DNA from: Candidatus Heimdallarchaeota archaeon
GTDB lineage: Archaea > Asgardarchaeota > Heimdallarchaeia > Heimdallarchaeales > JAJRWK01
Assembly: GCA_027001645.1 (NCBI GenBank)
Contig: JALTMP010000137.1
Coordinates: forward strand, 1 to 20,443
Direction of reading: 5' to 3'
DNA: 20,443 bases
This document shows, piece by piece, positions 3,505-11,516 of the stretch (its first letter is position 1; each line of letters opens with the position of its first letter). Made by a program: the position numbers and the translations under genes. The notes below the pieces were generated by a model. It saw nothing but the letters and a program-made list of their open reading frames with translations. It was not told where the DNA came from and ran no database searches.

Positions 3505-4218
3505 TTGATTGAAAACTTATGGATAATTAGCAAAGGTGGCCTGCCCTACTTTGAACTGCGGCCAGCTAAATCTGGAACCGAAAAGGTTTTGCTTTCAGGA
3601 TTTTTAACTGCAGTCGAATCTTTTGTCAGAGAGGCTACAGACAATGAAATAGAATCAATTAATCTGAGCAAAAAACGGTTCACTTATTCAATTGACAAGG
3701 ATCTCATTTTCGTTATTTGCACCGATGAGGACGCTAATCAGTTGATGATCAATAGATTTGTAGAAGTTGTGAAAAAGGAATTCTGGAAGAAGTATCGCAA
3801 AGAAATTAGCACAGATCTAATCGATTATGCTGTTTTCGACTCTTTCTCTGAAGTTGTTGAGAAAATGATTTCAGAAACAGATTTTATTCTTCATTGTGAC
3901 ACTTGCGGAAAACTGATCCCAGACGAGTTTATCTCACTTTCAGAAGGAAACGAGAGGTATTACTATTGTTGTCAGTCATGTTATACTGAAGGTCTCAGAA
4001 ACCATTCCAAGTCTTCATCGATGATTGCTGGTTCTTTCCTTATGTGTCAAAAATGCGGGTACACAAAGCCTGTTCCAGTACATTGCGATACGCCCATGCA
4101 TGTGGAAATCATTGATGAGGAGCCAAAACTCGTCTGTCATATGGGGCCTTCTTGTGCAGTGCAAGATGTTCCATCTCACTGCGGTGTTGGAATGAGACTC
4201 ATACTCACCACCTCATGA
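3505..4218 (+). CDS. Fusion protein: N-terminal roadblock/LC7/MglB-like alpha/beta domain plus a TRASH-type Cys4 metal-binding motif and a second Cys/His cluster.
   Basis: Residues 1-125 have the roadblock-like pattern ISKGGLPYF...LLSGFLTAVESF...INLSKKRFTY...LIFVICTDE. The TRASH motif is CDTC-x20-CCQSC (C-x2-C-x20-C-x3-C) at nt 3895-3984. The second cluster is CQKC-x10-C-x16-CH-x4-C at nt 4045-4158. The start is TTG 3505 with GGTGA 6 nt upstream; the frame opens just after TGA at 3496-3498 and the first in-frame ATG would delete half the N-terminal domain. Confidence 0.75.
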   Translation: MIENLWIISKGGLPYFELRPAKSGTEKVLLSGFLTAVESFVREATDNEIESINLSKKRFTYSIDKDLIFVICTDEDANQLMINRFVEVVKKEFWKKYRKEISTDLIDYAVFDSFSEVVEKMISETDFILHCDTCGKLIPDEFISLSEGNERYYYCCQSCYTEGLRNHSKSSSMIAGSFLMCQKCGYTKPVPVHCDTPMHVEIIDEEPKLVCHMGPSCAVQDVPSHCGVGMRLILTTS

Positions 4219-4518
4219 ATGCGTTGATGGGTTTGTAGAGGTAATTTTCCTATTTCATTAACCCTTAAACTGAGCATGTGTGAGTTTGGATATATTCTTT
4301 GGGTTTTGCTTTAGCAAAAATATTGTAAATACTGTCACCAAGCTTTTTCATTTTGCTGCATTCATATTCCAAAGCTCCATCTCATTATCCCTAACTACAG
4401 CGATCAAGTCTTCCGAGGAAATAACGGTGAAGGTTTGAAAAGAAATAGTGTGTCTTGTTCCACATTGTCAACAAGAATATAGCGAGAATATTTTTGGATC
4501 AATGAATAATGCCCTACT

Positions 4519-5517
4519 GTGAAGAAGATTACCCGAATTGAGATATAGAATTTCAAATCTCTAAGAAAAGTGGAACTTCAGCCTAGAAGAGTTAATGTTG
4601 TGATTGGGGAGCCAGACACTGGAAAATCAAATCTTGTTGAAGTCTTCAAATTGATATATTATCTTAATGAGGGAAGAGATCTTAGAGAATTGGTAAGATT
4701 TAATGATGTTTCTGAGCTGTTTTATAATCTTGACCTCAGCTTAGGTATCAAAATAAGAGTCAATCATGGAACCATAATTCAAGGAGGATTTAAGGATCCG
4801 TATTTACATTTTCAAAGCTTCATTGCTGAAGATGGGAGCAAGCGAATCCTATTCCGACAAATATTGGGTTCAGTAGGGAGAGCTACTAGGGTACAGAACG
4901 ATTCTGAGTTTGAGGAATCTGTACTAACCGGAATAAAGCCTTACAAGTTTTCCCATGATCAGACCATCTCCAGGTTGAAACCAATAGGATATCTTTTACC
5001 TGTGGAGGGCAGTAATTTATATTCTGTCGTATTTAACAATAAAAAATTGAAGGACTTCATTAAAGATCTCGTTAAAGAATTCGGCTATGAACTAATATTC
5101 GACAAAAGAACTAGGTCTTTTGCAGTCGAAAGAAGAATTCAAGATGTTCGCGTTTTGTTCCCATACTCTGTTCTTCCAAATACCCTTCAAGCAATGATCT
5201 TTCATACTGTAGCAGTTTATTCCAATAGAGATAGTTTTATCGTTCTTGACGAACCTGGAAAACTTCTCTTTCCAACATATATCAAAAGGTTAAGCGAACA
5301 AATTGCGCGCGATAAGGCGAATCAATATTTGATCACAACACATAATCCTAATTTTCTAATCCCGCTAATAGAAAAAACTCCAAATAGGGATTTGAATGTC
5401 CTTGTTGCGGTTCGTACCCGAGATAATGCAACATCATTCAAAGAATTCGATGTAGAGAAAATGATCAATGAACTGGACACAGATCCATTCTTTAACCTAA
5501 ACAGATATACCAAATGA
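4519..5517 (+). pseudogene. ABC-type (AAA_21/AAA_15-like, SMC/RecF-fold) ATPase whose conserved N-terminal strand is interrupted by an in-frame TAG at 4546-4548. The uninterrupted ORF (4570..5517, GTG start, 315 aa) lacks that strand.
   Basis: Reading from GTG 4519 gives (M)KKITRIEI*NFKSLRKVELQPRRVNVVIGEPDTGKSNLVE. This is the canonical I-x-NF(K/R)S N-terminal beta-strand followed by Walker A (GEPDTGKS). Walker B is FIVLDEP and the H-loop is LITTHNP. TAG is used as a real stop by several other genes in the window. Non-coding flanks are about 300 bp on the left and 330 bp on the right. The same frame reopens after the stop (TGA TTG TAA) for 41 protein-like codons (5524-5646). Confidence 0.55.
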
Positions 5518-5847
5518 TTGTAAGGAGAAACAATCGTAGTCGAAGCACCAGAATATGGAGTATTTGTAGAATGGTATGACGGTGAATTTTTCATAAAGCA
5601 GTTTGATAATCAAGGATTGGCTATTGAATACCCACTACTTCAAGGATAAAGAAAGAATTATGCCTGAATCAAAAGAGGAGAACCTACTAATCATCGCCCT
5701 ATCTTGGCTAGAGTCCAAAGTGGCATGTGTGTTTTACTTGCAGTCAGCAAACATGATTTTGGATTTAAAATCGCATGAATCTCTTCTTCTTTGCTGAAAC
5801 GATAAATGCAAAAACTATTCCTCGAAGAATGATTTAGTTGTGGTATT

Positions 5848-8037
5848 ATGAAGGCAGGGCTTAGCGGCGTTGATATTAGAGCATGGATTGAAGAGAAGAG
5901 AGAAGAGATTGAAGGATCATGGATTACAAATATATATCAATTGCCAAATCGAATATTTCTCTTAAAAATAAGAATCCCAGGTGTGTCGGGCTCCCATTTC
6001 TTATTGTTGGAACCAGAGAAAAGAATGCACTTTACAAATTATGCCCGTCCTGTTCCAAAAACGCCCCCTAATTTTTGTACAACCTTACGAAAACACTTGC
6101 GAGACAAGCGCATCAATGCTATCAAGCAATTAGGCCTTGACCGAGTTGTTGAGTTACAGATAGGGCCCGAACCCTCTTACCGCTTAATCATTGAATTAAT
6201 GCCTCGGGGTGCCCTAATACTTGTTAGCCCAGAGGGAAAAATCATTGCATCTACTTCTTATAAGCGAATGAAAGACCGAGACATTCACCCCGGAAAACGC
6301 TATTCGCCACCACCTTCTGCAAGCAGTGATATCCTCACTTTGAGCATGGACGAAATCAGAGAAAAACTTGAAAGCGAAACAGGCAAGATAGGGATTCTTT
6401 TGAATCGGCTTCTCAATGTTGGTCCGCAGTGGTCAAAGGAACTTTTGGCCAGAGCTGGAGTCCAGAATAAGCCTTTGAAGGAATTAGAACCTCAAATGTT
6501 CCAAAGAGTTCTCCAAGTGGTTGAACAATTTAAACACGATCTTGAAGTTGGCAGTTTCTCTCCGGTTGTCATTTTGGATAAAAGCATTTCACAAGAGGAG
6601 AGCAGGCAAGACACGGATGGTGAACTCGCTTCTGAGTTGTTAGAAGAGACACTAGACGATGTTGGCGGAGATGAAAAAACAGTTGATGGCGTGTATGAAT
6701 TTGGCGCTCGGTTCTCCCCGGAGGATATTTTGGAAATCGCACCATTTCAGATGACGTTGTACAGCGATCTTGTTCAGATCAACGTTGATTCGTTTAATGA
6801 TGCTTTGGATTATTTCTTTTCCGCTCAAGAAGAAGACTACGAAATCGAAGAAGAGGCTGAAATTGTTATCGCCAAGAAGGTGGGACTTGAAAAACGACTG
6901 GAAGAACAACAAAAACATCTAGAGACCCAAAAATTACTCGCCCGGGAAGCAAAGATAAAGGCAGATCTGCTCTATCAGTATTTTAATGATGTAAACGAGC
7001 TACTCCATGCAATTAGGACTGCTTCAGAAAAGAAAATCCCCTGGGAAACAGTTATCGAGAAACTAGAGGAAGCGAAAAAGAAAGGCAATAAGTCTGCTCA
7101 GATCTTTTCCAAACTTCTCCCAGGAGAGGCAACCGTTGTTGTTGAATTGACTGCAGATTCCGGCGAGAGGTATGAAATTCCACTCGATTTTCGCAAAACA
7201 GTTGCGGAGCTTGCTGATATCATGTATGCCCAGGCAAAACGCGCCGAGAAGAAAGCAATTGGAGCAGCAGCTGCGATCGAAGAAACCATGCGAAAGCTGG
7301 AGGTTGAACGTCAAAAGGGAGAGTCGTTGGAAGCAAAAGCAGTTCATTCGAAGCTTCTAATCAGAAGAAAGAAGAAGTGGTATGAGAAATTCAGATGGTT
7401 CTTTACAACTGAGGGATTGCTCGCAATTGGTGGATTAGATGCAAGCACAAACGAGCGAATCATCAAACGATACCTTGATTCTAGCGACTTATACTTTCAC
7501 GCTGATATTCACGGTGCACCCTCTGTTGTTCTTAAAGGAGGAAAAGAGAACGCGGAAGAGGATTCAATAAGGCAAGCTGCACAATTCGCAATTATTTATT
7601 CGAGTGCGTGGAAGGCAGGCATAGGTGCCGCCGATGCGTATTACGTGTTGCCTGACCAAGTTTCCTTCACTCCTCCATCCGGCCAATATCTAGCCAAAGG
7701 CGCAGTGATGATTTATGGAGAAAAGAAATTTGTTCGACATTTGCCCGTTCGGGTAGGAATCGGTCTTATTATCAAAGAACAATGGGTAGAAATCATCGGT
7801 GGACCTCCCGAAGCGATCAAAGCAAGAAGTGATATCTATGTCGAATTAAGCCCTGGAGACAGTCCTCCGGGAAGCATTGCAAAACAGATCTTAGGTATTT
7901 TCTCCAAGAAACTGAATCCTGAGGATCAAGCCAAGCTTAAAGCCGTGAATCCTAACGAAGTGATTAGATTTCTTCCAGGATCAGCACGGGTTGAAAAAGT
8001 AGAAGAGATTGGAAAAAATAAAAAGATTAAGGATTAA
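5848..8037 (+). CDS. NFACT-family protein (FbpA/Tae2/NEMF/RqcH homologue; ribosome-quality-control type), 729 aa.
   Basis: N-terminal NFACT-N pattern (MKAGLSGVDIRAWIEE...ITNIYQ...IFLLKIR), a central E/K-rich coiled coil, and a C-terminal NFACT-R/DUF814 block (FFTTEGLLAIGGLDASTNERIIKRYLDSSDLYFHADIHGAPSVVLK). ATG start at 5848. Confidence 0.9.
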   Translation: MKAGLSGVDIRAWIEEKREEIEGSWITNIYQLPNRIFLLKIRIPGVSGSHFLLLEPEKRMHFTNYARPVPKTPPNFCTTLRKHLRDKRINAIKQLGLDRVVELQIGPEPSYRLIIELMPRGALILVSPEGKIIASTSYKRMKDRDIHPGKRYSPPPSASSDILTLSMDEIREKLESETGKIGILLNRLLNVGPQWSKELLARAGVQNKPLKELEPQMFQRVLQVVEQFKHDLEVGSFSPVVILDKSISQEESRQDTDGELASELLEETLDDVGGDEKTVDGVYEFGARFSPEDILEIAPFQMTLYSDLVQINVDSFNDALDYFFSAQEEDYEIEEEAEIVIAKKVGLEKRLEEQQKHLETQKLLAREAKIKADLLYQYFNDVNELLHAIRTASEKKIPWETVIEKLEEAKKKGNKSAQIFSKLLPGEATVVVELTADSGERYEIPLDFRKTVAELADIMYAQAKRAEKKAIGAAAAIEETMRKLEVERQKGESLEAKAVHSKLLIRRKKKWYEKFRWFFTTEGLLAIGGLDASTNERIIKRYLDSSDLYFHADIHGAPSVVLKGGKENAEEDSIRQAAQFAIIYSSAWKAGIGAADAYYVLPDQVSFTPPSGQYLAKGAVMIYGEKKFVRHLPVRVGIGLIIKEQWVEIIGGPPEAIKARSDIYVELSPGDSPPGSIAKQILGIFSKKLNPEDQAKLKAVNPNEVIRFLPGSARVEKVEEIGKNKKIKD

Positions 8038-8059
8038 ATCTAAGAATCAATACTGAAAA

Positions 8060-8617
8060 ATGTCTTCAAATTGTGATAATAAGAAGACCGTTATTCCCCC
8101 AAAGTTTATACTAGATGGTTCCCTCGGAGACGTAGCCAAGTTTTTGAGAATTATGGGCTTCTCAGCTGAGCTAAGAGTTACAAATCTGAGGAGAGAGAAA
8201 ATTGGTCCAGACTATATTGTAATCACTAGAAGCGAGGAGTTGGCGAATCATTTGAGAAAGAATGGAAAAGAAGCAATCGTCCTGCCAAAGAAGAAACCCA
8301 AAGAAGGAATTATTCATGATCTACGATTGATTGTGGAGAAAGTATCACCAAAAAGGATGCGTCCATACATGTTTTGCACTCCATTTTGCCAGCACTGTAA
8401 CTCGGCTCTCATGGTTCGAGATGCGAAAGAGCTTTCTTCTTTGATTCCAGAGAAGAGCTTGCATCATCTTGATTGGGCCTATTACTGCACTTCATGTAAT
8501 AAGACCTATTGGCTGGGAAGTCATTGGAAGCGAATCCGAGATGTTTTCGAACGAGCTTTGGAAGGTTACGATATTGTCATTCCACGTCCTTGGCAAAAGA
8601 GTCCGCCGTGTCAGTAG
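8060..8617 (+). CDS. Mut7-C RNase domain protein (PIN-like fold, PF01927/DUF82) with a C-terminal zinc ribbon.
   Basis: FILDGSLGDVAKFLRIMGF... N-terminal pattern; the C-terminal residues are CTPFCQHC...CTSCNKTYWLGSHWKRI (CxxC...CxxC plus the YWxGSHW motif). It starts 22 bp after the NFACT gene on the same strand. Confidence 0.8.
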   Translation: MSSNCDNKKTVIPPKFILDGSLGDVAKFLRIMGFSAELRVTNLRREKIGPDYIVITRSEELANHLRKNGKEAIVLPKKKPKEGIIHDLRLIVEKVSPKRMRPYMFCTPFCQHCNSALMVRDAKELSSLIPEKSLHHLDWAYYCTSCNKTYWLGSHWKRIRDVFERALEGYDIVIPRPWQKSPPCQ

Positions 8618-9707: not shown

Positions 9708-11516
9708 TCAGGTTAGTTTCAGGACCGCGTGATCGAGCTCAGTTGTAAAGACTTCAGAGCTCAGCTCTTCTCCGTAGATTCGCTGGACAGCTTCATCAAG
9801 GGGAGTGTGTCTTCTCGAACTCAAGAGCTGTCCTGTTCTCATGTGGAGGGTTCGGCGCTGAAGAATGTATTCTTCTCTCTTATTTTGCCATTCCGTGATA
9901 TCCTTCTGAAACGTTGCTCCAATAGTACCTACTAATCTGTCTTCGTTTCCTGCCATGCAAAAGATATATTTGAGGTTCTCATCATGTGCTAAGACAATTT
10001 CTTCAGGCAATAATTGGAACTCTCCAACAAAGAAATGATTAACGCATTGCTCGATAACTTCATCAAGACCATCCAGCATGCTCGCGATTGCTTCAGGATT
10101 TTCCAAAACAGGCGAAGTTAAGAATACCGTCCTATTTTGACCAAAATCGGATTCAATGACGCCCTCAATCACGTATTGGCTTTCTCTGAAGGTGTCGAAC
10201 ATCTCAAACAGCTTGAGATCCCCGACTGCGTCAATAGCAATGGCTTTGGCTACAAAATCAGGAATGTAGGGATCTTTCGTCTTGATTCTTTTAGACTTCA
10301 TCGATTTTGGTCGCTTTGGTGTTTTGGGCTTAAGTGCTGATGTAGATTTTTCTTTTTTGCCGAAGAATCTGCCGAATAGGGATCTTACTTTCTTTACAAT
10401 TGATTCCTCTTCCTCTTGACGGTGCGGAGTGCTGGCTTTTGGAACTGAAGATGGAGCAGATTCTTCAACCATTATGATTTCTTCAAGCTCAGGAGCAATG
10501 TTGCTCCAGCCCTTTCCTTCTCCCCCTTTGAGGTAAAGAATTGAAAGAATCTCCGAAACGTTAACTTCATCGGCTTCTGTTCTTAGCAAAACGAAGGGTT
10601 TCTTTTGATGGAAGGGGTTTCTTATCAAGATCAAGTTGCTTTCTTTTTCAGAGCCAAGGAGCTTCCCTCTTAAATAAATGAAATTGGTACTCTTATCGTG
10701 GTCTCTTAAGAAATCACGAAGGGGAGTAATCGCCTTTTGATCTTGCTTGTAGTCTCTTTTTTCTAGCGGAATATTCCATCGGGAAATAAGTCGTTCGTTT
10801 GCATCGAGCACCAATAAGGAACTAGTGGAGTCTATATTGGGTATTACTGGATTATCGTTAACCTCCACCTTGTGCACATTGCTGTACTCTGTGAGAACAT
10901 TCCAGATTGGCTCAACTAAGGAGCTCAGCTTACTGATGTTGCTCAATGCACCGCGTTGTTTGATTTCTTTGTCAGGCAACTGCCTTTTGAGGGCAGCAGA
11001 TAGAACCCCTAGCTCCCATCCGACATTTCCTGGGCCCAGTACTTGCTCACACAGTGTTAAGTAGGGGATTATTTGCGCATCCATTATTCTGACAAGAGTT
11101 GTTTCTCGATCAAGTCCCCTTCCAGAGAGGAACAGATCCTTTCTGCGGATTTGCTGGGCAAGGTTGTAAGCTAGATAAAATACTCGCATCAACGCATCGC
11201 TTGATCCACAACGAGAGGTTAGACCATCAATGAACGATGTAATAACGGATATTCTTCGCTCCTCGTCGTCGACTCCAGTTGGAACCTCTGAAGATGTTAC
11301 GATAAAATCTGCTATGAATAGAGCACGACTAGCATCTTGGGGGTCTATCAAACCTTTATCTTTGGCAAGGTCTAAGAGTTCTGGAGCCATCGTGGCGTAA
11401 CGCCCGAGACGCGACTCCATATCGTATTCTTTATCAATTTGCTTTAGCAATCCCTCAATCTCGCTTATGTTTGGTAGCTCTTTCAAAGAAATCATCCGTC
11501 CTTTTGGGATGTTCAC
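9708..11516 (-). CDS. Large multidomain protein of unknown function: helical N-terminal region, Lys-rich disordered linker, possible roadblock-like C-terminal domain.
   Basis: Long ORF of 602 aa with consistent coding composition. The linker is KKEKSTSALKPKTPKRPKSMKSKRIKTK. The C-terminal segment IVLAHDENLKYIFCMAGNEDRLVGTIG is preceded by a helix (PEAIASMLDGLDEVIEQ), resembling a roadblock/LC7 core. GTG at 11516 is the longest start; the first ATG is at 11495. Confidence 0.75.
   Translation of the reverse strand: MNIPKGRMISLKELPNISEIEGLLKQIDKEYDMESRLGRYATMAPELLDLAKDKGLIDPQDASRALFIADFIVTSSEVPTGVDDEERRISVITSFIDGLTSRCGSSDALMRVFYLAYNLAQQIRRKDLFLSGRGLDRETTLVRIMDAQIIPYLTLCEQVLGPGNVGWELGVLSAALKRQLPDKEIKQRGALSNISKLSSLVEPIWNVLTEYSNVHKVEVNDNPVIPNIDSTSSLLVLDANERLISRWNIPLEKRDYKQDQKAITPLRDFLRDHDKSTNFIYLRGKLLGSEKESNLILIRNPFHQKKPFVLLRTEADEVNVSEILSILYLKGGEGKGWSNIAPELEEIIMVEESAPSSVPKASTPHRQEEEESIVKKVRSLFGRFFGKKEKSTSALKPKTPKRPKSMKSKRIKTKDPYIPDFVAKAIAIDAVGDLKLFEMFDTFRESQYVIEGVIESDFGQNRTVFLTSPVLENPEAIASMLDGLDEVIEQCVNHFFVGEFQLLPEEIVLAHDENLKYIFCMAGNEDRLVGTIGATFQKDITEWQNKREEYILQRRTLHMRTGQLLSSRRHTPLDEAVQRIYGEELSSEVFTTELDHAVLKLT

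What the first reader, a model, noticed from the sequence alone, without database searches (positions are those of the whole stretch)
4219..5847. ABC-type ATPase with an amber codon inside its conserved N-terminal strand, isolated in a gene-poor island
Reading upstream of the tracked ORF in the same frame recovers the canonical ABC/SMC-like N-terminus, (M)KKITRIEI-TAG-NFKSLRKVELQ...GEPDTGKS. The TAG at 4546-4548 sits where homologues carry K/E/R, so a single AAG to TAG change is enough to explain it. Standalone AAA_21-type ATPases of about 350-450 aa are core parts of many antiphage systems (Gabija, Septu, PARIS, retron-associated PtuA) and normally sit beside a nuclease partner. Here no partner is present. 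Instead the gene has about 300 bp and 330 bp of non-coding sequence on either side, unusual for this dense window. The reading frame also reopens after the double stop TGA-TTG-TAA for 41 protein-like codons (VVEAPEYGVFVEWYDGEFFIKQFDNQGLAIEYPLLQG). A 45-codon ORF (5660-5797) follows. Together this looks like a decaying defence or accessory module. Alternatively the gene may be expressed from GTG 4570 as an N-terminally truncated ATPase.
Basis: seen in the sequence. Interest (0 to 1): 0.7.

Follow-up and report, generated by a model that had tools for sequence, protein, structure and literature searches.

The report
Dead ATPase–nuclease defence-like gene pair
This is a broken copy, in an Asgard archaeon, of a two-gene module (an ABC-type ATPase plus a small Toprim-like nuclease partner): the ATPase carries a fixed premature stop and the partner survives only as a stub, which is ordinary gene decay.

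Summary
The sequence facts hold. GTG 4519 to TGA 5517 encodes a 332-codon AAA_15/AAA_21 ABC ATPase. TAG 4546-4548 interrupts it at codon 10, where all four aligned homologues carry Lys and two checked at DNA level (41% and 31% identical) read AAG.

The TAG is not an assembly error: it is present in all five assemblies that cover it (four haplotypes, several samples). It is not recoding either, because TAG ends 5 of 15 large ORFs here.

Strain differences pile up in the ATPase (8 times the flanking-gene density, 8 nonsynonymous to 2 synonymous) and in the stub (24 times, with frameshifting indels). A sister lineage kept the ATPase under purifying selection, then lost its 3' end and the partner in a separate roughly 530-bp deletion.

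Verdict: a recently inactivated PARIS/AbiL/HEC-01-like module. Low interest. The flanking gaps are not unusual for this window.

The parts
4219..4518 (.). Intergenic region between the TRASH/longin gene (stop at 4218) and the ATPase start. It presumably holds the old promoter of the module. No RNA family, tRNA or significant repeat was found.
   Evidence: An in-frame TAA at 4507-4509 bounds the ORF. One strain SNP at 4356.
4519..5517 (+). ABC-type ATPase pseudogene (AAA_15/AAA_21; 332 codons once the stop is restored). The GTG start is homologous to the start of its relatives.
   Evidence: Pfam AAA_15 2.7e-11, AAA_21 2.2e-8. PADLOC AbiLi over the full length at 1.7e-13, and HEC-01A at 7.4e-18. 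Homologues P0002 and P0003 at 43% and 41% identity over 99% of the length.
4546..4548 (+). Premature amber codon at codon 10. It replaces an invariant Lys (AAG in L004 and L006).
   Evidence: Present in L002, L003, L093 and L094.
4570..5517 (+). Residual 315-codon ORF from an internal GTG. Gene callers annotate this. It lacks the first beta-strand motif (I7 to S14).
   Evidence: all four cluster members are 315 aa; invariant columns.
4606..4629 (+). Walker A motif GEPDTGKS (residues 30-37), still intact.
5236..5253 (+). Walker B motif FIVLDE (residues 240-245). The next conserved Glu of DEPE is Gly here (DEPG). Homology with the sister-lineage contig L008 stops at 5253.
5518..5646 (+). N-terminal stub of the partner gene (small family whose model resembles Toprim domains). 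TTG 5518 directly follows the ATPase stop. TAA 5521-5523 is CAG in the three other haplotypes, and TGG 5572-5574 (W) is TGT (C) in them, which restores the family's VEC motif. The DxD motif and the C-terminal three quarters are missing.
   Evidence: haplotypes; local alignment against shuffles gives p=0.0005 with the L087 partner and p=0.002 with P0087 for the other-haplotype version, and 0.0065 and 0.046 for the window version. HMM match at the N-terminal profile positions, E=0.83 among about 1100 pieces.
5660..5797 (+). 45-codon ATG ORF with no evidence of being a gene. It lies in decayed spacer between the stub and the NFACT promoter region.
   Evidence: No similarity to the partner (p about 0.3). 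The ATG is ATA in haplotype L094. Positions 5254-5784 are absent from sister lineage L008.
5785..5847 (+). Upstream region of the NFACT gene, conserved with the sister lineage. It belongs to the neighbouring gene, not to the module.
   Evidence: blastn: L008 244-947 matches window 5785-6488 at 72.7%.

Best explanation
The locus is the dead remnant of a two-gene operon.

- Gene 1 was a 332-aa ABC ATPase of the RecF/Rad50/OLD-like AAA_15/AAA_21 type.
- Gene 2 started right after the stop codon of gene 1. It was a protein of about 175 aa whose family keeps an invariant Glu after strand 1 and a DxD after strand 3, and whose model resembles OLD-family Toprim nuclease domains.

By analogy with PARIS (AriA/AriB), AbiL, RloAB and HEC-01, the intact pair most likely acted as a sensor and effector. 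In that model the ATPase holds or controls the small nuclease and lets it act on nucleic acid when an invader is sensed. This step is inferred, not shown.

In this Asgard archaeon the effector gene has been cut down to a stub of at most 43 codons with no catalytic DxD. The ATPase has an AAG-to-TAG nonsense mutation at codon 10, inside the most conserved strand of the family. Both lesions are fixed in the sampled population, and the island is now drifting. It has excess polymorphism, mostly nonsynonymous changes, frameshifting indels in the stub and, in this window's haplotype, an extra TAA and a Cys-to-Trp change.

The module was an old resident between the TRASH/longin gene and the NFACT gene. 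The sister lineage kept it under purifying selection and then destroyed it separately by a deletion of about 530 bp.
For: Shown:

- **Nonsense codon.** It sits at an invariant Lys in a region that matches AAA_15 from profile position 2.
- **Reproducibility.** The TAG is present in all five assemblies that cover it (four haplotypes). All four members of the 90%-identity protein cluster were called as 315 aa. No intact 332-aa allele turned up in the 5.8-billion-protein search.
- **Conserved pairing.** ATPase then partner is found in L006, L086, L087 and L090, and in the P0002/P0087 pair reported on a contig of the same length (4315 bp).
- **Partner stub.** Its similarity is at the right genomic place and the right profile positions.
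- **Polymorphism density.** Flanking genes 1.2 per kb, ATPase 10 per kb (p=2e-4), stub region 30 per kb (p=3e-8). The ATPase N:S of 8:2 fits omega=1 (P=0.63) better than omega=0.1 to 0.3 (P=0.0007 to 0.07).
- **Sister lineage L008.** The ATPase fragment has pN 0.22 against pS 0.73, which indicates long-term purifying selection. Window positions 5254-5784 are then deleted.
- **Defence-type neighbourhood of intact pairs.** Fic and HipA/HTH in L006; an Eco57I/MmeI-type methylase in L086.

From the literature: ABC ATPase plus separate Toprim is a recognised defence architecture (PMC10568477, PMC11464382, PMC13064643, 10.1101/2024.01.29.577857).
Against: - The 315-codon remainder of the ATPase is still open in all four haplotypes, so the stop is recent. 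Residual expression from GTG 4570 is not excluded.
- The stub's similarity to the partner is short, about 20 residues. It is not significant in an unrestricted search of the whole window (E=19 by phmmer; the large family HMM misses it). It rests on the prior expectation of position.
- Six of the strain SNPs cluster within 91 bp (4801-4891). The stub's polymorphism also exceeds the synonymous-site density of the flanks. Recombination with diverged alleles may therefore contribute, not neutral drift alone.
- No defence activity has been shown for this family. HEC-01, the best PADLOC match of the ATPase, gave no protection when tested (10.1101/2024.01.29.577857).
Confidence: 0.85

Rival explanations
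1. The ATPase is still made as an N-terminally truncated 315-aa protein from GTG 4570. It keeps some function, such as a standalone ATPase or a regulator.
For: The 948-nt frame is open in all four haplotypes. Walker A, Walker B and the H-loop are intact. Gene callers annotate it.
Against: It would lack the invariant I7, I9, K10, N11, F12, K13 and S14 of the first strand. In ABC ATPases that strand forms the hairpin of the nucleotide-covering beta-barrel (Krishnan et al. 2020, as summarised in 10.1101/2024.01.29.577857). Its effector partner is gone. Strain changes are 8 nonsynonymous to 2 synonymous, at 8 times the density of the flanking genes. The conserved DEPE is DEPG.
Confidence: 0.08
2. 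The TAG is decoded, either by pyrrolysine insertion or by programmed read-through, so the full 332-aa ATPase is produced.
For: Some Asgard lineages do encode the Pyl machinery, and amber codons can be ambiguous in Pyl-using archaea (PMC9723677, PMC12626013, titles and abstracts). The replaced residue is Lys.
Against: TAG ends 5 of 15 large ORFs in the window and is not depleted: 481 TAG against 652 TAA and 841 TGA over both strands. The macro-domain gene ends with TAA here and with TAG in L008, at the homologous C-terminus. The ATPase is the only large ORF in the window whose upstream in-frame TAG is preceded by homologous coding sequence. Even if the TAG were read through, the partner gene is still destroyed. 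The rest of the genome could not be searched.
Confidence: 0.03
3. The TAG is a sequencing or assembly artefact and the gene is intact.
For: None found.
Against: The identical TAG appears in separate assemblies: Logan SRR10312491 (L002), Logan SRR10312498 (L003), GenBank GCA_027016885.1 (L093) and ENA ERZ23495063 (L094). These differ from the window at other positions.
Confidence: 0.01

Closest known systems
PARIS (AriA ABC ATPase plus AriB Toprim nuclease; proposed class 4 OLD family)
   Same: A two-gene layout with an AAA_15/21-type ABC ATPase followed by a separate nuclease-like protein. The PADLOC AriA models hit the ATPase N-terminus at 9e-13. The partner model resembles OLD Toprim domains and keeps a Glu plus DxD.
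   Different: The ATPase has 332 aa, whereas AriA is described as 53-55 kDa. The partner has 173-180 aa against 35 kDa for AriB, and shows no DUF4435, AriB or other Pfam or PADLOC match. The AriA hit covers only residues 3-83. The copy in this window is inactivated.
AbiL (AbiLi/AbiLii) and RloAB-type ATPase plus Toprim/OLD pairs
   Different: The partner family gives no AbiLii hit, even at E up to 10 for two members and up to 1 for 67 members. The score of 48.9 bits is modest. The hosts are Asgard archaea and Bacteroidota, not lactococcal plasmids, and the partner has no match in the plasmid or phage collections.
HEC-01 (Hma-embedded candidate: ABC ATPase plus TOPRIM protein)
   Same: It is the best PADLOC hit of the ATPase (HEC-01A, 7.4e-18) and has the same architecture (10.1101/2024.01.29.577857).
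   Different: The match covers mainly the N-terminal 65 residues. Only 1 of 67 partner members touches HEC-01B, at E=0.026. HEC-01 itself gave no protection in the published assay.

Membership tests
ABC ATPase, Pfam AAA_15 / AAA_21 (RecF/Rad50/OLD-like) | Score above the Pfam gathering thresholds, including the N-terminal strand | tested here: met
   AAA_15 scores 44.1 bits (cut-off 32.1) over residues 3-81. AAA_21 scores 34.9 bits (cut-off 27) over residues 25-280. Both were run with Lys restored at the TAG.
ABC ATPase, Pfam AAA_15 / AAA_21 (RecF/Rad50/OLD-like) | Walker A GxxxxGK[ST], Walker B hhhhDE and the H-loop His | tested here: met
   GEPDTGKS (residues 30-37), FIVLDE (240-245) and TTH (273-275) are all present.
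ABC ATPase, Pfam AAA_15 / AAA_21 (RecF/Rad50/OLD-like) | Uninterrupted reading frame, that is, a functional gene | tested here: not met
   TAG at codon 10 in all five assemblies that cover it.
PARIS (AriA/AriB) | Full-length match of the ATPase to AriA | tested here: not met
   PDLC02979 hits only residues 3-83. PDLC02980 is the generic AAA_21-like span.
PARIS (AriA/AriB) | Partner is a DUF4435/AriB Toprim protein | tested here: not met
   No Pfam or PADLOC hit for the partner family.
AbiL (AbiLi/AbiLii) | ATPase matches AbiLi | tested here: inconclusive
   Full-length alignment at E=1.7e-13 and 48.9 bits. No curated cut-off is available.
AbiL (AbiLi/AbiLii) | Partner matches AbiLii | tested here: not met
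   No PADLOC AbiLii hit for any of 67 partner members.
HEC-01 | Both HEC-01A and HEC-01B are matched | tested here: inconclusive
   HEC-01A at 7.4e-18, but mainly the N-terminus. HEC-01B is touched by 1 of 67 partner members, at E=0.026.
Toprim / OLD-family nuclease domain (partner family) | Conserved Glu after strand 1 and DxD after strand 3 | tested here: met
   E11, D57 and D59 are invariant in 67 sequences. In the model, strands 5-10 and 50-57 end at these residues. In the window stub only the Glu survives.
Toprim / OLD-family nuclease domain (partner family) | Fold similarity to solved Toprim domains | tested here: inconclusive
Toprim / OLD-family nuclease domain (partner family) | Metal-dependent nuclease activity | not testable with these tools
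   This needs biochemistry on an intact member such as P0087 or P0036.
Pseudogene (decayed module) | Disabling lesions relative to intact homologues, fixed in the population, with relaxed constraint | tested here: met
   A nonsense codon and a truncated partner. Four haplotypes carry them. Polymorphism is 8 times (ATPase) and 24 times (stub) the flanking density, with N:S of 8:2. The sister lineage has an independent deletion.

The most novel reading that the evidence does not exclude
The intact form of this pair may be an uncatalogued antiviral system of the PARIS/AbiL type, shared between Bacteroidota and Asgard archaea. It consists of an ABC ATPase of about 325-350 aa, followed directly by a 173-180-aa protein with invariant E-C..D..H..DxD, a model that resembles Toprim domains, and no Pfam, PADLOC, NCBIfam or PHROG model.

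The effector seems to break first. It is broken in L004, L007 and L089 while the ATPase ORF stays intact. That would fit a toxin (nuclease) held in check by the ATPase.
Probability: 0.45. Interest if true: 0.45.

Novelty: new variant of a known kind. Interest (0 to 1): 0.25.

Why it matters
For this window it mainly matters for annotation.

- The 315-aa "AAA_21 ATPase" that gene callers report should be flagged as a pseudogene.
- The two small downstream ORFs should not be called as genes.

More broadly, the locus is a clean example of defence-type gene turnover in an Asgard archaeon. An old resident module was kept under purifying selection and then lost independently in two sister lineages.

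It also pointed to a family of roughly 390 small proteins whose model resembles Toprim domains. They sit behind ABC ATPases and are absent from current domain and defence-system libraries. That family, not this dead copy, is the part worth testing.

Tried and rejected
- **Whole-window searches for the partner.** A large partner-family HMM and phmmer with P0087, run against all six-frame pieces of the window, found nothing significant. My first match by eye of the 45-codon ORF to the partner's "YFYLIEISPRLEQWLVKCF" segment failed the shuffle test (p about 0.3) and is withdrawn.
- **Profile libraries for the partner.** Pfam, PADLOC, NCBIfam, PHROGs and a PDB sequence-profile search gave no consistent family.
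- **Structure searches.** Foldseek against the PDB gave no hit. The AFDB library was not available.
- **RNA and repeats.** Rfam, tRNA and repeat scans of 3900-6100 gave no RNA element, integration site or terminal repeats. There is therefore no sign of a mobile-element boundary.
- **Wider homologue searches.** The metagenome scan found only distant pairs (33% identity or less) and no closer intact relative. The viral-contig scan found only N-terminal motif matches. The partner has no match in the plasmid or phage collections.
- **Contig look-ups.** P0002 and P0087 are not on record, so their shared contig could not be read.
- **Pyrrolysine.** The rest of the genome is not available, so this was judged only from TAG usage in the window and in L008.

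Full report
**1. Observation**

The frame that starts at GTG 4519 reads V/M-KKITRIEI, then TAG (4546-4548), then NFKSLRKVELQPRRVNVVIGEPDTGKS, and continues to TGA 5515-5517. An in-frame TAA at 4507-4509 closes the frame upstream, so GTG 4519 is the only possible start.

With Lys put back at the TAG, the 332-aa product passes Pfam's thresholds for AAA_15 (residues 3-81) and AAA_21. It also matches many PADLOC ATPase models: HEC-01A at 7.4e-18, and AbiLi over the full length at 1.7e-13, along with AriA, GajA and PtuA.

The closest full-length relatives are P0002 and P0003 (43% and 41% identity, 351 and 338 aa). They begin MEFIKEIKIKNFKSL, with the same nine residues before an invariant Lys. They end at the same "DTDPFFNLN.Y" C-terminus.

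At the DNA level, the L004 homologue also starts with GTG. The homologous codon is AAG in L004 and L006. A single A-to-T change therefore explains the stop. The double stop TGA-TTG-TAA, the 41 open codons at 5524-5646 and the 45-codon ORF at 5660-5797 are all as described.

**2. Artefact and recoding are both unlikely**

The window sequence recurs in separate assemblies. L002 (Logan SRR10312491) is nearly identical and carries the TAG. Three further haplotypes differ from the window at 8 to 18 positions and all carry the TAG:

- L003 (Logan SRR10312498)
- L093 (GenBank GCA_027016885.1)
- L094 (ENA ERZ23495063)

No 332-aa allele exists in the 5.8-billion-protein collection. All four members of the cluster were called as 315 aa.

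TAG ends 5 of the 15 large ORFs in the window and is not depleted. The macro-domain gene ends with TAA here and with TAG in the sister contig L008, at the homologous C-terminus. Some Asgard lineages do use pyrrolysine (PMC9723677), so the idea is not absurd. Nothing here supports it, and the full genome could not be searched.

**3. Organism and locus history**

The neighbouring genes are a UbiA prenyltransferase, a methyltransferase, a longin/TRASH protein, NFACT, Mut7-C, a HAD hydrolase, a macro-domain protein, a PhoU-like protein and a Band_7 protein. The NFACT relatives place the window in Asgard archaea.

The only close relative is L008 (MAG Dive96_bin2.176, NFACT 79% identical). Its contig starts inside the same ATPase. 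L008 positions 3-227 align with window 5029-5253 at 63% amino-acid identity, with pN 0.22 against pS 0.73. The gene was therefore under purifying selection for most of the time since the split.

Directly after the Walker B "ILDE", L008 jumps to the sequence that lies 63 bp upstream of NFACT. Window 5254-5784 is missing. The module is thus an old resident between the TRASH and NFACT genes. It has been destroyed independently, by a nonsense codon here and by a deletion of about 530 bp there.

**4. The partner**

In L006 the ATPase homologue P0006 is followed with no gap by a 180-aa ORF that has no Pfam domain. A profile search found about 390 relatives of 173-180 aa, mostly from Bacteroidota. 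They include P0087, which is reported on a contig of the same length (4315 bp) as P0002.

A family HMM finds this protein directly downstream of the ATPase in L006, L086, L087 and L090. It finds a start of it at the end of contig L088. It finds broken versions in three loci:

- L004: frameshifting deletion.
- L007: large internal deletion.
- L089: deletion plus a stop codon.

In the sequences read here (L004, L007), the ATPase ORF beside the broken partner is intact.

**5. The downstream ORFs**

In the three other haplotypes, the codon after TTG 5518 is CAG rather than TAA, and 5572-5574 is TGT (Cys) rather than TGG. The frame then reads LQGETIVVEAP(E/D)YGVFVECYDGEFFIKQF..., starting one codon after the ATPase stop.

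This matches the partner N-terminus: "KIIVECYGDSLLIKQL" in L087 and "RIYVECHNDELFARK" in P0087. Local-alignment scores beat shuffles at p=0.0005 and p=0.002, and at 0.0065 and 0.046 for the window version. A small HMM places it at profile positions 8-22.

Unrestricted whole-window searches do not reach significance. The call therefore rests on position plus motif. The stub has no DxD and no C-terminal domain. L094 has extra frameshifting indels in it.

The 45-codon ORF shows no similarity to the partner (p about 0.3). Its ATG is ATA in L094. Most of it is absent from L008. I treat it as non-coding.

**6. Relaxed constraint**

The distinct strain differences number:

| Region | Length | Differences | Density per kb |
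|---|---|---|---|
| Flanking intact genes | 3226 bp | 4 (3 synonymous) | 1.2 |
| ATPase | 999 bp | 10 (8 nonsynonymous, 2 synonymous) | 10 |
| Downstream region | 330 bp | 10 (including three indel events) | 30 |

The ATPase and the downstream region differ from the flanks at p=2e-4 and p=3e-8. The 8:2 ratio fits neutrality (P=0.63) better than the long-term omega of 0.1-0.3 (P=0.0007-0.07).

One caveat applies. Six of the SNPs cluster in 4801-4891, in the variable insert of the ATPase. Recombination with a diverged allele may therefore contribute.

**7. Claims that do not hold**

- Gaps of 300 and 330 bp are not unusual. The window has others of 342, 288, 272 and 212 bp.
- The island is only slightly more AT-rich than its surroundings, and the TRASH gene is equally AT-rich.
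- No tRNA, Rfam family or flanking repeat marks a mobile element.

**8. Mechanism and comparison**

ABC ATPase plus a separate Toprim protein is a recognised defence architecture. Examples are PARIS, AbiL, RloAB and HEC-01 (PMC10568477, PMC11464382, PMC13064643, 10.1101/2024.01.29.577857). In PARIS the ATPase acts as the infection sensor and antitoxin for the Toprim effector AriB, which cleaves tRNA (PMC13064643, PMC12409363).

The intact relatives of this locus sit next to Fic and HipA/HTH genes (L006) and next to an Eco57I/MmeI-type methylase (L086). I infer that the ancestral pair worked in the same way.

It is not a member of PARIS or AbiL by sequence, because the partner fails those tests. 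It is best described as a new variant of this known kind. The copy in the window is dead: the effector is truncated and the sensor is truncated at codon 10. A product from GTG 4570 would lack the invariant first strand that forms part of the ABC nucleotide-binding barrel (Krishnan et al. 2020, as quoted).

**9. Verdict**

There is one correction (a partner stub is present) and two deflations (the gaps are ordinary, and the 45-codon ORF is not a gene). Interest is low at 0.25. The by-product worth following is the uncatalogued small partner family whose model resembles Toprim domains.

Noticed in passing
L004:3132-3519, L007:1062-1150, L089:3847-4212: In three unrelated loci of this two-gene family the small partner gene is broken, by a frameshifting deletion, a large internal deletion, or a deletion plus a stop. 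In L004 and L007 the neighbouring ATPase ORF is intact. No locus with a full-length partner beside a broken ATPase was seen. This could mean the effector is lost first, as expected if it is toxic without the ATPase.
   Followed up: partly
window 4801-4891: Haplotype L003 differs from the window at six positions within 91 bp (five nonsynonymous) and nowhere else in the ATPase. The cluster lies in the variable insert between Walker A and the rest of the fold. It looks like a recombination tract or a former hypervariable sensor region.
   Followed up: no
window 3505-4218, 15988-17601, 17874-19523: The window carries proteins with eukaryote-like signatures, consistent with its Asgard origin. These are a longin-like domain fused to TRASH zinc-binding motifs, a Band_7/flotillin-like protein with a long charged coiled-coil, and a HEAT/adaptin-like protein (faint Adaptin_N hit).
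   Followed up: no
window 9708-11516 (-): A 602-aa ORF with no Pfam hit at E up to 0.01. It is conserved in sister lineage L008 (599 aa, same ends), so it is a real gene of unknown function.
   Followed up: no
window 5848-8617: NFACT (Rqc2-like, 729 aa) is followed 22 bp later by a Mut7-C RNase-domain protein. The adjacency is conserved in L008. The Mut7-C gene and the convergent HAD hydrolase gene overlap by 41 bp (8577-8617).
   Followed up: no
L004:1474-2078: The intact ATPase homologue P0003 is preceded by about 600 bp with no called gene (gene table). This is a longer upstream gap than the 300 bp in the window. The sequence has not been examined for coding content. Long leader regions may be a feature of this module.
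   Followed up: no
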